Assembly: GCA_951406725.2 (NCBI GenBank)
Contig: OX597821.1
Span: forward strand, 14,632,001-14,696,000
Source of the DNA: Octopus vulgaris
Lineage: Eukaryota
Length of the DNA stretch: 64,000 nt
Reading direction: 5' to 3'
Shown here: positions 4,856 to 36,986 of the stretch, piece after piece
Layout of the letters: each line of letters starts with the position of its first letter
Numbering within the stretch: the stretch's first letter is position 1
Translations under genes and position numbers: made by a program
Notes under the pieces: model-generated
Seen by the model: only the letters and a program-made list of their open reading frames with translations
The model's database searches: none
Told to the model about the DNA's origin: nothing

Positions 4856-5479
4856 ATATATATGGCATGAAAATGAGCTGCTGCAAAATAATACGAACAA
4901 AGGTGTACTAAATACCATAGAATTTAAATACTTGATTTATTGAAATTATACCTGTTTCCAGAGAGGGCAGAACGATCGTTTGGAGACCAACTCCGAATGG
5001 GGAGGGATAATCACATGAACCAAGACCTGTGCGAAATTGATGCCATTAAGAAGTGTCGTCAGCACAACTGTATATATTATTATGCTAGTGTATACTTTAT
5101 AAATGAAAAGAGCTCACTGCACCGATGCATCCGGCCGTGTCAACAGCATTGAAATAAGAGTTGTTTGGAAACAAACAAACAAAAGTAACCACAATTTTTA
5201 CACACACACACGTGTGTGTGTGTGTACGCAATTAGCCCTATCGATACTCTATCTGACTTTGGTATGAGGCGGCAAATTGAGAGGAGTTCGAGTATGTTTA
5301 AAATCGGAGTATACCGATGAATGATGTGGAGTCTCTCAGTGTGACAGAAGTCGCAGTCTTTGGATCCCTTTCTGCGTGCTGGTACTTTGTGTATCCTGCA
5401 CACACCAACAAAACAAACCTGCTCTCACCTTGGAGCCAGCCAAAATCTCATTGAAGCATACACTCCTCTGCAACTTCCA

Positions 5480-6162: not shown

Positions 6163-8770
6163 ACTATGTCAAATCAGATAATCGAAAAGGGCAATAAAAT
6201 AAGCATAGCTGAAGGGAAATTCAAACTATATCTGTGGAGGCATGTGACAGTATGGAGGTGAACTGTGCCAAAACTCAAGATTATGCTAATCCAGTGAACA
6301 AATCATGTGGCAGTATGAACAAGGATTGTGTTAAAGATTCGAGGCTGTCAGAATAGCTAAAATTAAAGAAATATATTGTTTACTTGTGTGCGAGTCACAG
6401 TATATAATGCGCACGCGTGATTGTATGTTTGTGAAAGAGTGAGCAACAGTAATGTCTTGTCAATTTAATATCATAGTTGATAGTAAATGTATTTTCTAAT
6501 TTGGTATTATAAATTATTTGGTCGCAGTTTGAAGTTTTTAATATCTATATTTTCTTTATTTGTTCATATTAAATTTGTAATTTTGTTAACCAATTTTTGT
6601 TAATCGAAAGACTTAAAATTTTGGGAATTTGTTTATTTGTACGTAAGTAGCTGTTTACTTAGTGGAATCTGTCTCGTACTGGTATCTAGTATTTGTTGAC
6701 GATGAATAGTCGATCTTTTCCTCAAGGTAAGTTCGTTCGTTATTTGTAAATCTTATTTACATTTATTACTTTTAATAGCATAAAATTAACTTTTTTGACA
6801 AACAGTGAAATAATTCCTTAAAGTAAAATCTTAATTTAAATTTATAATTGTTTTCAATAAAGTTGATGTGTCACAGTTAAGTTGACCACAACGTATTGAG
6901 GGCTGTTGTCCATACCTGTGGCTGGAGCAAGGTCCCAGCCAGAGGGAAGATGATATGGTGTTGAAAGAGAGTTGTAAAAGAATAAAAGCTGAGAGATAGA
7001 CACAGAGTAATACCAAGTGTCTCGAAGAGAAGCTAGGCATCTAATCACTTAGCAAGGGTAAAAGAGAAAAAAAATCTAGAGATTCACACATATTTGGTGA
7101 CATGAGAATCAAAGGCCTGGAGTTGTCTGAACTGGATGAGTGTGGTAGGGGAAATTGTATCGAGACGTCGTTGACGAGAAGTATATTCTGGATGGAAGCA
7201 GTTCACTTGCTCTTACTGTATCAGAAGCTCGTGACTTCGAGAATCACGAGACGAGGTCACGCCGTTTAGACAATATTTGTCACGCATCAGAATTATTACC
7301 ACCTCTAAAAACAAAAAAAAAGTGCTCTCTCAGACTGTCTCATCTGTTCAGTGACTGGTTCGCCTGACAGCGTTTGCTCGGTATGTCTGAAAAACTTAGT
7401 TACTTATTTACAAACTCTGAAATCGAATCCGGCCGAGGTTAAATCCATCGCTCTTTTGGGTTTAATAAAAACAGTGTTAATCCATAGCAGTGGATTGCTG
7501 GAATTATAAGCATCAGACCGAATACATCGCGGTATTAGTTCTGGCTCTGCTTTCTGAGTTAAAAGCCTACTATGATCAACTTGGGTATCAGACTTAATTC
7601 GTCGCATAGTTTAACACCACCAATTTGAAATTTGGGTGCTTTTAGCAGAGTTTATTTAGTTGCAAACATTCAGATCAGGTCTCAGATTTGAGCATACCTC
7701 CTTCTCCCACTTTCATCAATGCCTTGGAGAACGATAAAAGGAAGATCTCAAGCAAGATACAAAAGATCTAAAAACGACAACAACATCTCAGGATCTCGGA
7801 ACATTTTTACAAGCCACCCCACTCAGTGCAGTGTTGCAAGACACTAACATGTGAAAGAAGCATAGATATACAAATCTTAATGTAAAACACGGACGCTTTT
7901 AACCATCGGTCCCGACTGAAGATCACTTCATTAGGAAACTGATATGTCTTGTTTCCCCGGAAAGTTACAATGTTTGGCTTCTCGATTTGCCAGGCTATCG
8001 ATGTGATAAAAGAAAACGCAATCAACACTTCTGACGATCGATTTTAAATTCGGAACTGCTCATACGTTAATAACATACGCAGTAATAAGGCACAGTCTAC
8101 CCTTATTTCTATGTACAGCCTTGTAAAAGACTGGAATGATTTCAGTCAGTACGCCGGTGCGAAGCCTTGGACAGCCAAAGAAAGACCTGTAAATATCTCA
8201 CAACACCCAGAAGTTTAAAAGAATCCGGCTTTCTTATGAAGCTTAAAACCAGTCTTATTCCACGTTTGTAAAATTTCTATCCTTAATCATTCATTTGTCA
8301 TTTGGATTAAAATTCATTTCCTATTTATTCATTAATCCGTCTGTATGTCTTCCTCTCAATCAATCAATTAATTAATCAACCAGTCATCTCAGTAACCCCA
8401 CTTATCAACCAGGTTAAATATTAAAACCCCAAGAAGCAAACACAATACCTATTGATTGTGAAATTATTCTGATATTTTGTGATGTCTTGTTTGTTAAGTC
8501 AATTATAAACCACATTTAACAGCACTGAAACCATACTCGCAATTTAAACTTGTTCCTTATAATACACTAACGCATCATACATACATGCATATCTGTGTGT
8601 ATGTGTGCCTAATGCATACATGTACATACACGCACACACAAATTAGGCACGGTATGGTCGAATAATTAAGAAGTTCGACTCCCATCGGTGGCATCATGGA
8701 CAAACGTCATTTTCTATAGCCCCGATTCGATCTTAACATAAATGGTATTGGATGGACGGTACCAATAATC

Positions 8771-10196
8771 CATGTTTGTGGAATGCTCACTCGCTTGCAC
8801 GTGTTTGTGGAATGCTCACTCGCTTGCACGTGTTTGTGGAATGCTCACTCACTTGCACGTGTTTGTGGAATGCTCACTCACTTGCACGTGTTTGTGGAAT
8901 GCTCACTCACTTGCACGTGTTTGTGGAATGCTCACTCACTTGCACGTGTTTGTGGAATGCTCACTCACTTGCACGTGTTTGTGGAATGCTCACTCGCTTG
9001 CACGTGGGTGTGGAATGCTCACTCGCTTGCACGTGTTTGTGGAATGCTCACTCGCTTGCACGTGTTTGTGGAATGCTCACTCGCTTGCACGTGTTTGTGG
9101 AATGCTCACTCGCTTGCACGTGTTTGTGGAATGCTGACTCACTTGCACGTGTTTGTGGAATGCTCACTCACTTGCACGTGTTTGTGGAATGGTCACTCGC
9201 TTGCACGTGTTTGTGGAATGCTCACTCGCTTGCACGTGTTTGTGGAATGCTCACTCACTTGCACGTGTTTGTGGAATGCTCACTCACTTGCACGTGTTTG
9301 TGGAATGCTCACTCACTTGCACGTGTTTATGGAATGCTCACTCACTTGCACGTGTTTGTGGAATGCTCACTCGCTTGCACGTGTTTGTGGAATGCTCACT
9401 CACTTGCACGTGTTTGTGGAATGCTCACTCACTTGCACGTGTTTGTGGAATGCTCACTCACTTGCACGTGTTTGTGGAATGCTCACTCACTTGCACGTGT
9501 TTGTGGAATGCTCACTCGCTTGCACGTGTTTGTGGAATGCTCACTCACTTGCACGTGTTTGTAGAATGCTCACTCGCTTGCACGTGTTTGTGGAATGCTC
9601 ACTCACTTGCACGTGTTTGTGGAATGCTCACTCACTTGCACGTGTTTGTGGAATGCTCACTCGCTTGCACGTGTTTGTGGAATGCTCACTCACTTGCACG
9701 TGTTTGTGGAATGCTCACTCACTTGCACGTGTTTGTGGAATGCTCACTCGCTTGCACGTGTTTGTGGGATGCTCACTCACTTGCACGTGTTTGTGGAATG
9801 CTCACTCACTTGCACGTGTTTGTGGAATGCTCACTCACTTGCACGTGTTTGTGGGATGCTCACTCACTTGCACGTGTTTGTGGAATGCTCACTCACTTGC
9901 ACGTGTTTGTGGGATGCTCACTCACTTGCACGTGTTTGTGGAATGCTCACTCACTTGCACGTGTTTGTAGAATGCTCACTCGCTTGCACGTGTTTGTGGA
10001 ATGCTCACTCACTTGCACGTGTTTGTAGAATGCTCACTCGCTTGCACGTGTTTGTGGAATGCTCACTCACTTGCACGTGTTTGTGGAATGCTCACTCACT
10101 TGCACGTGTTTGTGGAATGCTCACTCACTTGCACGTGTTTGTGGAATGCTCACTCGCTTGCACGTGTTTGTGGAATGCTCACTCACTTGCACGTTC
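8771..10196. repeat. 29-bp minisatellite, about 49 copies, unit CACGTGTTTGTGGAATGCTCACTC(A/G)CTTG
   Basis: Uninterrupted head-to-tail units with few variants and no spacers. Confidence 0.97.
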
Positions 10197-10295
10197 ATTC
10201 AGAAGCTGGTAATTCAGTTCATCGAACTGTTTCTTCATCCCCAAACGACGGCAGACTATCCCCCCCCCTTCAGAACACACACACCACGCGGACAT

Positions 10296-10685
10296 ACTCT
10301 TTTACTCTTTACTCTTTTACTTGTTTCAGTCATTTGACTGCGGCCATGCTGGAGTACCGCCTTTAGTCGAGCAACTCGACCCCGGGACTTATTCTTTTGT
10401 AAGCCCAGTACTTATTCTATCGGTCTCTTTTTGCCGAACCGCTAAGTGACGGGGACATAAACACACCAGCATCGGTTGTCAAGCGATGTTGGGGGGGACA
10501 AACACAGACATACAAACATACACGCATATATATATCGCAACCTGGTGGTTACCGCCCGTTGACAAGGGACAAAATTCCCGAAACTAGTTATACCCTCCTT
10601 CTTCCCTTCTTTCCTGAGCGCCCAATAATACTTTATTTGTTCCACATCCTCGCGTTGTTGTCTTTTTGTTTTCTCGTTTGGATTA

Positions 10686-14204: not shown

Positions 14205-14693
14205 CATTCATCTTACTTTGTATCGGCACACCTCGCTACAACCCCAGAAAACTGCTACTGCCAGTTGGTATCATTAGGCTGTAGCCGACATAATAAAATA
14301 GTTTTTATATCCAAACTCAAAAACGTTTCCCCACAAACGAATTTAAAGGATATATATCACTTCCACACATGCCCGCTTAATTTAATTCGTCCTTAGTCGA
14401 AAGATACGTGTTGTTAAAGTCATGTTATTTGTATTTATGTAGCATTTCTCCGTTTTTTTTTATCTTTGTTTCCATGTACATTCGCTTGCTTTCTTCCAAG
14501 GAATCTAGTGCTCTTAGATTTTCTTGGGGCTGGCCAGATTGAAGCAGTTTCGAGTGTAACCGGCCGAAACTGCTGAGAAAATCTAGAACTCGACTGAAGA
14601 TAGAAAACTCTTAATGACCTGTCCTTGTTTGTATCGTCTAACTCTCCGGATGTTTTGTTGTCGCCTGTTAAGTTCTTATTCGGTTTTTTATTT

Positions 14694-26104: not shown

Positions 26105-26286
26105 TCGTTTTCACCTTCGAAACGTAGAGTAGATAAAACCATAGCGACTGAAGAAGGGGTTTTTTCTTTGTGTTAATTGTCTTGTACTCTATTTTTTTGT
26201 TGTTTAAAAAAATGTCCAGTTCCTTGGGTTTGTGTCTATGTTTTCGTTTCTCATTGTGTTCGACGTCTTTTTGGTGTCCTGTACTC
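26105..26286 (+). mobile_element. Short (TA)n-flanked element with GAAA upstream of CTGAAGA and a T-rich tail
   Basis: TCGTT..CCTTC-GAAA-CGTAG...AGCGA-CTGAAGA-AGGGG. Confidence 0.45.
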
Positions 26287-26360
26287 ATATATGCGTGTAT
26301 ATGTACATGTAGAGGTAGGTACGTACATATATGTTTATATATATGCATATGTTTTATTTA

Positions 26361-35110: not shown

Positions 35111-35196
<86 letters not shown>

Positions 35197-35202
<6 letters not shown>

Positions 35203-35361
35203 GAAAAATACAAACTGGGACAAGAACGTAAAACATTTAGAAGACGATACAAAAACACGGACGGGACATTCGAAGCCTTCAATCTTCAGTCAAGAACCGG
35301 ATCATCCTAGCAATTTCGGCTGATTAATCTTGAGATCGCTCCGATCCGGCCAGCCCCAAGG
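35197..35361 (-). ncRNA. Family P3 terminus with the non-canonical hammerhead-like RNA (copy 2), ending at (TA)n
   Basis: Minus strand: AGCGAT-C-TCAAGA..AGCC-GAAA-TTGCT..TCTTGA-CTGAAGA-ttgaa-GGCT. Confidence 0.6.
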
Positions 35362-35732
35362 ACAAGGAAAGAAATAAAATTGTACAAAATAAGATTTGTT
35401 TTACGAGACTAAAGAATATATTTAACTCATCATGGCAAAAGTATTATACTATATTATACAAAATAAGATTGTTTCTTTAATCAAATGACTGGTTTCGCTG
35501 AAGTTTTTCAAATTTTGAGTATTAGATGCAATTCGAAATGAGAAATTTTGTTTGTTAGCATGGGATCGTTACGAATTGCATCTAACATTCAAAATTTGAA
35601 AAATTCAGCGAAACCGGTCATTTTATTAGAGGAAGGACATTTTATTTTGTATAATATTGTATAATACGATTCAATTATATTCTTTAGTCTCGTAAAACAA
35701 ATCTGTTATTTTCAAGTTATTTCTTTCCTTGT
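35362..35732. repeat. About 170-bp diverged inverted repeat; PLE-type fold-back with the 3' half of an HHR
   Basis: Arms 35362-35536 and about 35571-35732; GAAACCGGTC at 35610-35619. Confidence 0.75.
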
Positions 35733-36472: not shown

Positions 36473-36942
36473 ACTAACCTCTAACCTCATCCTCTAACAA
36501 ACCCATAAAAGTACTCATTTAACCAGGAAAACCTTCAGCTAAAACAAATTGTTATCGGAATATGACCTATCTACCACATGAACTTATATACAAATATAAC
36601 TGTCAGCATCTAGATTTATATACTCGACTGAACCGAAAAAAGGCATATAAACTTAACTCTTGGGTTAGTTACGTTTAGAACATTTAATCACCCGGCTAGT
36701 TGCTACCAAAAGAACACGATCATTTGTTAAACCAGACTCTTTTCTACCCCCATCCTATAACCATATACTTACTTCCTCTCCTTCTTCATCCTCTCCTTAC
36801 ACTACATTTTTCCTTTATCCCTATCAACTAATATCCATACTATACATTGCTCCACCCATCCGTTGAAACCAGCAATAATAAACTTGATATAAGGTTTGAA
36901 AAACAAAAAAAAAAAAAAAAGGAAAGAATAAGAAACTAAGTC

Positions 36943-36986
36943 ACAGTCTGATGACGACTAGTAGGCCGAAACTTCGAAGTCATTGT
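36943..36986 (+). ncRNA. Type I hammerhead motif in a PLE-like 3' end running to (TA)n at 37139
   Basis: ACAGT-CTGATGA-cgactagtaggcc-GAAA-CTTCGAAGTC-ATTGT; palindromic stem III, GUC site, AATAAA at 37003. Confidence 0.72.

What the first reader, a model, noticed from the sequence alone, without database searches (positions are those of the whole stretch)
35274..35356. Best-preserved copy of the rearranged hammerhead, with a competing stem II partner
Seen on the minus strand: GGCTG-g-CCGGATC-gg-AGCGAT-C-TCAAGA-ttaatc-AGCC-GAAA-TTGCT-aggat-GATCCGG-t-TCTTGA-CTGAAGA-ttgaa-GGCT. All three stems can form, with an AUC site (H at 35334) and a 5-nt insertion between the core and stem II. An upstream GGCTG, also present in the 14.5 kb copy, can pair with CAGCC instead. 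Inference: a folding switch or a dimer-dependent ribozyme. This is the copy to test first.
Basis: partly seen in the sequence, partly recalled or inferred. Interest (0 to 1): 0.85.

Follow-up and report, generated by a model that had tools for sequence, protein, structure and literature searches.

The report
Split-core hammerhead ribozyme in Penelope repeats
This is one of many genomic copies of a small jumping-gene RNA that holds all the parts of a self-cutting hammerhead in an order not found in the papers searched, with the catalytic core itself opened; it likely cuts itself (untested) and would explain why Naiad retrotransposons seemed to lack such an RNA.

Summary
In 66 homology-picked copies, a four-helix fold using the UPSTREAM GGCUGG is 94.8% paired with 151 compensatory cells (0/500 shuffles). 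The downstream GGCU loses its core-closing pair in 23 of 66. So the chain enters and leaves between A9 and G10.1: the reverse-order (SGC/CSG) class opened inside the CUGANGA block, which Eckert 2023 assumed unbreakable. A k-turn consensus (56 of 66 copies) joins stem III to the stem I/II helix, which favours a monomer over a dimer. The copy is the 5'-truncated tail of a young ~830-nt non-autonomous Penelope-like repeat in (TA)n. Its core is intact but not unique. The same fold with unrelated letters ends the published octopus Naiad consensus. Of 20 Naiad 3' ends read by eye, 13 show reverse-order hammerheads, although Naiads are reported to lack canonical ones. Truncated copies pile up at the predicted cut (64 exact). 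Cleavage itself is untested. This scan noted the same fold before on other DNA (five notes); the k-turn and cut-start leads came from one of them and were re-tested here.

The parts
35350..35355 (-). Stem II 5' strand (10.1-10.6, GGCUGG), first in the chain instead of after the core
35343..35349 (-). Stem I/II interaction helix, strand following stem II (also the NC helix of the k-turn)
   Evidence: 95.0% paired, 3 of 7 pairs with changes on both sides
35340..35342 (-). k-turn non-bulged strand (3n, G2n, A1n), predicted from sequence
35328..35339 (-). Block S: stem III 3' strand, AUC triplet (predicted cut 3' of C35334), stem I 3' strand
35310..35323 (-). Block G: stem II 3' strand, GAAA, stem III 5' strand (a 4-nt linker 35324-35327 precedes it)
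35304..35309 (-). k-turn bulged strand (3-nt bulge, G1b, A2b, 3b), predicted from sequence
35297..35303 (-). Interaction helix, strand preceding stem I
35283..35295 (-). Stem I 5' strand and CUGAAGA core, last in the chain
35274..35277 (-).
35188..35361 (-). 5'-truncated 3' end of a ~830-nt non-autonomous Penelope-like repeat (family A), ending in (TA)n
14528..14600 (+). Second copy of the fold (older family B) with compensatory changes in all four helices
26105..26154 (+). 3' part of the same fold in another family (D); this copy begins exactly at the predicted cut, after (TA)n

Best explanation
The stretch encodes a hammerhead core whose strands come in reverse (SGC/CSG-class) order and whose chain ends lie between A9 and G10.1, at the tail of a high-copy Penelope-like repeat; it is predicted to fold as one molecule, bent back by a likely k-turn, and to cut itself after C35334. 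Shown: conserved core letters, four covarying helices, k-turn consensus letters, a fixed 3' end in (TA)n with variable 5' truncation, tandem and inverted copies, and an excess of copies starting at the predicted cut. Inferred: a rod (interaction helix, k-turn, stem III, 20-nt loop) folds back so that the loop pairs with GGCUGG (stem II) and with the strand before CUGAAGA (stem I). Cleavage about 150 nt before the 3' end of each unit would cut tandem transcripts into unit-length RNAs, possibly circles, which a Penelope-type RT/endonuclease copies into (TA)n. The fold likely comes from Naiad 3' UTRs, where tandem duplication of a CSG unit and loss of the outer halves would move the CUGANGA half-block to the end.
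For: Covariation: 94.8% of 1644 cells paired, 151 double-change cells and covariation score 0.310, each reached by 0 of 500 shuffles; slid controls pair 11-44%. Families C and D have unrelated letters and the same order; family C gives 408 exact pattern matches against 0 control. Core: N7 varies in family B while CUGANGA is kept in 24 of 28 B and 32 of 34 A copies; NUH is AUC in A, GUC/GUU in B, GUA in C. k-turn purines are intact in 56 of 66 A/B copies and in 26-29 of 30 C copies per position, while the bulge varies in B. L1 is G, which cannot pair, in about half or more of the depth in four other runs. Cut starts: 64 copies are (TA)5 joined directly to the predicted 3' product. Over the span listed in both calls, 25 start there against 9 at the best single upstream T position (hand count). 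[quoted passage not shown]
Against: No cleavage data. Copies within a family are related, so shuffles overstate support; pairs with double changes (10) were reached by 27 of 500 shuffles and further pair types by 126 of 500. Most compensatory changes come from one A/B split. Weak downstream partners recur: 4 bp in 30 of 34 A copies, 5 wobble-rich bp in 21 of 30 C copies, and -2.2 against -4.6 kcal/mol in D. The downstream GGCU shows no variant at 15% or more. A crude reach estimate made without the k-turn was borderline for a monomer (about 45 A available, 42 A needed). In Naiad-4_Dst, read by eye, stem III runs almost straight into the interaction helix with no k-turn. Starts are also common 2-8 nt after the cut (13 of 24 loci) and could reflect RT stalling at structure or T microhomology. 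The anole PLE hammerhead needs protein and is dispensable for insertion in vitro (PMC11167929, passages). No RT gene was linked to family A or B.
Confidence: 0.62

Rival explanations
1. Same split-core active site, but assembled in trans: the terminal loop of one unit docks into the internal loop (GGCUGG plus stem I strand and CUGAAGA) of a second unit, so cleavage needs tandem copies.
For: The nested part folds as a rod. Monomer reach is borderline without a sharp bend. Tandem arrays exist: 7 motifs in one array on C6. PLE hammerheads are thought to act as dimers (PMC4209133). By eye, Naiad-4_Dst and Naiad_Hcon have the interaction helix continuous with a long stem III. Eckert et al. flag the same steric puzzle.
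Against: A k-turn consensus sits exactly where a fold-back is needed in families A, B and C. Most copies are solitary and truncated.
Confidence: 0.2
2. One reading: a type SGC hammerhead with a 5-nt insertion and downstream stem II, with the upstream GGCUGG as an off-switch (or the two acting as a two-state switch).
For: All four downstream pairs form in 96% of cells in family A. Weak downstream partners also exist in C and D. Naiad_Smim reads by eye as SGC with a 3-nt insertion, so that layout may exist. The window copy lacks the upstream flank that sequesters GGCU in the predicted fold of intact copies.
Against: The core-closing pair is broken in 23 of 66 copies and covariation is reached by 18 of 500 shuffles. 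Family B has no such helix. The register differs between families (5, 4 and 1 nt). The upstream helix is 2.4 to 10 kcal/mol stronger and sits directly before the interaction strand, as the stem II strand does in type SGC. Eckert et al. know no insertion over 2 nt here.
Confidence: 0.1
3. A hammerhead-derived but no longer catalytic structure, kept as a binding or stall signal for the mobilising RT.
For: No activity data. HHR mutants do not affect insertion of an anole PLE in vitro. Rfam gives no hammerhead match.
Against: Catalytic letters are conserved while N7, H17 and the helices vary as in active hammerheads. Copy starts show a step at the predicted cut. Rfam cannot model this order.
Confidence: 0.08

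Closest known systems
Type-SGC hammerheads (HRIMA-1 and variants) and type-CSG, Eckert et al. 2023, PMC10085705 (text parts 2-6 of 8 read; supplement keyword-searched; figures not seen)
   Same: Reverse cyclic order S-G-C, a short linker from stem I to stem II, a helix joining the other sides of stems I and II, and the same core letters.
   Different: Their block C (stem I strand, CUGANGA, stem II strand) is assumed unbreakable; here it is split and its halves are the two ends of the motif. [quoted passage not shown] 'k-turn' was not searched in that paper.
Naiad Penelope-like elements, Craig et al. 2021, PMC8557442 (passages and supplement excerpts read)
   Same: (TA)n targets, tandem and inverted truncated copies. 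The 3' ends of the Naiad_Obim and Naiad_Ovul consensus sequences match family C and read as the same fold.
   Different: Reported to lack canonical hammerheads, with 8 families flagged 'HHR_half_core'. Family A/B itself has no ORF and no demonstrated Naiad partner; cephalopod Naiads are described as remnants, while family A is young.
Non-LTR retrozymes and minimal PLE hammerheads (PMC4209133 and bioRxiv 10.64898/2026.07.22.740005, passages read)
   Same: Non-coding tandem repeats with one hammerhead per unit, related to PLEs.
   Different: Those carry type I hammerheads with a weak stem III that need dimers; this motif has four stable helices in reverse order.
Standard k-turn (PMC5061560, start of abstract in search listing)
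   Same: 3-nt bulge followed by tandem G.A and A.G; family C also has U.U next to them.
   Different: Kinking is not measured here; family D departs from the consensus.

Membership tests
Hammerhead ribozyme (any topology) | Core letters CUGANGA, GAAA, NUH | tested here: met
   CUGANGA 32/34 A, 24/28 B; GAAA 32/34 A, 20/28 B
Hammerhead ribozyme (any topology) | Stems I, II, III flank the core and covary; G10.1-C11.1 | tested here: met
   (93-96% paired per helix; 10.1-11.1 paired in 63 of 66)
Hammerhead ribozyme (any topology) | Site-specific self-cleavage 3' of H17 | not testable with these tools
   Only contigs were available. Indirect sign: copy starts at the cut
Canonical types I, II, III | Cyclic order C-G-S, three-way junction | tested here: not met
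   Order is reversed; no Rfam hammerhead match at E<=10
Type SGC (Eckert 2023) | Order S then G then CUGANGA | tested here: met
Type SGC (Eckert 2023) | Block C uninterrupted: stem II strand within 1-2 nt after CUGANGA | tested here: not met
   Direct downstream pairing is 18% in A, 11% in B and 36% in C; the conserved partner is upstream
Type SGC (Eckert 2023) | Helix joining the other sides of stems I and II | tested here: met
   helix 2
k-turn | 3-nt bulge plus tandem G.A/A.G between two helices | tested here: met
   56 of 66 A/B; 26-29 of 30 per position in C
k-turn | About 50 degree kink on folding | not testable with these tools
   needs FRET, gel mobility or a structure
Non-autonomous PLE / non-LTR retrozyme | Fixed 3' end, variable 5' truncation, tandem and inverted copies, microsatellite target | tested here: met
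Non-autonomous PLE / non-LTR retrozyme | No coding capacity | tested here: met
   The two ~150-aa frames of one unit tested have no Pfam match
Non-autonomous PLE / non-LTR retrozyme | Type I hammerhead in each unit | tested here: not met
   order is reversed and split
Non-autonomous PLE / non-LTR retrozyme | Circular RNA in vivo | not testable with these tools
   no raw RNA reads offered
Naiad PLE | N-terminal GIY-YIG plus RT ORF on the same element | tested here: inconclusive
   No ORF linked to family A/B or to 6 extended C loci. Only broken Naiad endonuclease remnants were found in the genome. The link of C to Naiad rests on the published consensus

The most novel reading that the evidence does not exclude
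A seventh natural hammerhead topology: an active ribozyme whose catalytic strand is opened between A9 and G10.1 and closed by a k-turn scaffold, present in thousands of copies in animal genomes. Reverse-order hammerheads (CSG, SGC and split-core) are the general, overlooked ribozyme of Naiad retroelements across nematodes, arthropods and molluscs.
Probability: 0.65. Interest if true: 0.85.

Novelty: new variant of a known kind. Interest (0 to 1): 0.72.

Why it matters
It would break the three-block rule used to enumerate hammerhead permutations. It would move non-circular permutations from viroid-like metatranscriptomes into animal genomes at high copy number. It would replace 'Naiads lack hammerheads' with 'Naiads carry hammerheads that the descriptors could not see'. 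That makes the open question of what hammerheads do for Penelope-like elements testable in the most abundant clade with a 75-nt transcript. A hammerhead whose ends exit at A9/G10.1, with no open stem, is also a new engineering format.

Tried and rejected
Rfam: the whole-window scan was swamped by TA-repeat miRNA hits (top 150 of 419 shown); the local scan gave no hammerhead. MFE folding cannot show the pseudoknots and gave no significant z-scores for 6 sequences. A closing 'stem IV' between the flanks has 82% pairing but 0 compensatory changes and scores below shuffles, so it was rejected as a conserved helix. An RT fragment beside a family B copy (L040) led to an active 446-aa + 784-aa RT/GIY-YIG element whose tail carries an ordinary minimal type I-like motif, not this fold; its 3' end is not more similar to A or B than shuffles, so the mobiliser is unidentified. 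Six extended family C loci held no ORF. Sequencing runs: no RNA holder listed on record; four guessed-RNA runs held the repeat but as contigs, which cannot show ends. Lünse et al. 2017 was not held; only its title was seen. My first preference for a trans dimer was lowered after the k-turn test.

Full report
Observation. A related copy lies at 14528-14600 on the plus strand. A descriptor for this strand order returns these two places in the window and nothing in 100 of 100 shuffles, with the caveat that I wrote it from these copies. Rfam has no hammerhead match here.

Context. The genome is 2.8 Gb and rich in (TA)n; likeness to published octopus Naiad consensus sequences points to an octopus (inference). 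The motif query gave 1959 first-look candidates, 40 scored and nearly all 98-99% identical; the 14.5 kb copy gave 3082 candidates at about 77-89%. Family A is a unit of about 830 nt with a fixed 3' end in (TA)n, variable 5' truncation, head-to-tail arrays (7 motifs in one array) and inverted partial copies. These are the hallmarks Craig et al. give for Penelope-like elements (PMC8557442, passages). Two ~150-aa frames of one unit have no Pfam match. The window copy keeps about 180 nt of the 3' end and stops about 5 nt upstream of stem II, beside a palindromic element with 16-nt terminal repeats. Its core is intact but identical to many others.

Which strand is stem II. An nhmmer search of the loci gave 166 hits, 147 full length and 68 distinct. 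I dropped 2 with large internal deletions and aligned 66. With the upstream GGCUGG as stem II, the four helices are 94.8% paired with 151 double-change cells and covariation score 0.310, none reached by 500 shuffles. Two weaker measures were reached by 27 and 126 of 500 shuffles, and relatedness inflates all of them. With the downstream GGCU, pairing is 82.2%, the pair next to the core fails in 23 of 66, and the score is reached by 18 of 500. Duplex energies favour the upstream strand in single copies of A, B and C and in D. Against a clean dismissal: A, C and D each offer a weak downstream partner, after 5, 4 and 1 nt, and the downstream GGCU shows no common variant in four other runs.

What topology this is. 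Eckert et al. divide the hammerhead into blocks C, G and S, assume they cannot be interrupted, and validate types SGC and CSG, found only in metatranscriptomes and metagenomes (PMC10085705). Here the order is: stem II strand, interaction strand, S, G, interaction strand, stem I strand with CUGAAGA. Joining the two ends gives the SGC/CSG/GCS circle with all three linkers closed, so this is that class opened between A9 and G10.1. PLE hammerheads conserve an extra nucleotide at this junction (PMC4209133, passages), which makes it a plausible exit point (inference).

Scaffold. Following a lead in an earlier scan note, I tested the loop between stem III and the interaction helix for a k-turn, defined as a 3-nt bulge followed by G.A and A.G with a 50 degree included angle (PMC5061560, abstract start). 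All four purines are present in 56 of 66 A/B copies. Each is present in 26-29 of 30 C copies. My crude estimate without a bend was borderline for a monomer; a k-turn supplies the fold-back, so I favour cis folding. A trans dimer stays open. Family D departs from the k-turn consensus.

Naiad link. The 3' ends of the Naiad_Obim and Naiad_Ovul consensus sequences show the same order with unrelated letters and a GUA site. A pattern from them has 408 exact matches in this genome and 0 in the control (loci). I read by eye the last ~600 nt of 20 of the 54 Naiad consensus sequences, assigning names from header order. Seven nematode elements read as type CSG. Four (Obim, Ovul, Esco with a mismatch in stem II, and 4_Dst) read as split-core. 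Smim reads as SGC with a 3-nt insertion. Ptep reads as a variant with stem II as a local hairpin. Seven showed nothing I could parse. These readings were not computed. Craig et al. state that Naiads lack canonical hammerheads and flag 8 as half-cores. Family A/B shares the fold, spacing, k-turn and target with C, but its 3' tail is not significantly similar to C's and no ORF is attached. Naiad endonucleases in this genome are remnants. The active RT/GIY-YIG element found has an ordinary minimal motif. The mobiliser of the young family A is therefore unknown.

Sign of cleavage. Also following that note, I counted copies that begin after (TA)5. Sixty-four begin exactly at the predicted 3' product, 28 of them on the reverse strand. 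All starts in the ~22 nt upstream together give 70 on the reverse strand, with a laxer anchor. Over the span listed in both calls, my hand count is 25 at the cut against 9, 4 and 4 at the best upstream positions. Among 24 distinct loci listed, 7 start at the cut, 13 start 2-8 nt after it and 4 before it. The window's family D copy also begins at its predicted cut. This fits RT running off cleaved RNA, but RT stalling at the structure or T microhomology could contribute. RNA runs were contigs only and cannot show ends. In an anole PLE the hammerhead needs protein and is not required for insertion in vitro (PMC11167929, passages).

Novelty. Searches for non-circular permutation, PLE+hammerhead+octopus (19), Naiad+hammerhead (41), permuted hammerhead+Penelope since 2022 (42), the A9/G10.1 junction (57, 64), hammerhead+kink-turn (75, listing only) and type-SGC (86) listed no paper that, from the parts I saw, describes this form or reverse-order hammerheads in Naiads. 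A 2026 preprint on animal retrozymes uses type I models only (passages; its supplements are closed). Subscription journals are not covered, and figures were not seen. Five earlier notes of this scan describe the same fold on other DNA; they are unchecked and are not counted as support.

Verdict. A real, strongly covarying hammerhead fold in an undescribed strand order: it works like SGC/CSG hammerheads but fails the unbroken-block-C test. New variant of a known kind; catalytic activity about 0.85 likely, split core as the active form about 0.8, monomer over dimer about 3 to 1. Interest 0.72.

Noticed in passing
window 26105-26290 (+): A fourth family (D, 2439 first-look candidates) with the same split-core order; this copy starts exactly at the predicted GUC cut after (TA)n.
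   Followed up: partly
window 36940-36985 (+): An ordinary minimal type I PLE hammerhead-like motif (weak RF00008 match, E 1.1).
   Followed up: partly
window 35362-35732: Palindromic MITE-like element with perfect 16-nt terminal inverted repeats abutting the 5' end of the finding's copy.
   Followed up: partly
window about 2030-2140: Inverted pair of short tails, each with a CUGAUGA core next to (TA)n; looks like an inverted PLE insertion.
   Followed up: no
window about 5120-5190 (-): Short stretch resembling, by eye, the sequence just upstream of the family C motif, but the core does not follow.
   Followed up: partly
L091, L093 (G000:C9:10.67 Mb; C2:45.35 Mb): Young autonomous PLE with a 446-aa ORF overlapping a 784-aa RT/GIY-YIG ORF, many intact copies, and a minimal hammerhead with a UUGAAAA core.
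   Followed up: partly
PMC8557442 supplement, Naiad consensus 3' ends: By eye: type CSG hammerheads in 7 nematode Naiads, an SGC-like form in Naiad_Smim, and a form with stem II as a local hairpin in Naiad_Ptep. CSG was known from two metagenomic sequences only.
   Followed up: partly
window about 8700-10300: Tandem array with a 29-nt period.
   Followed up: no
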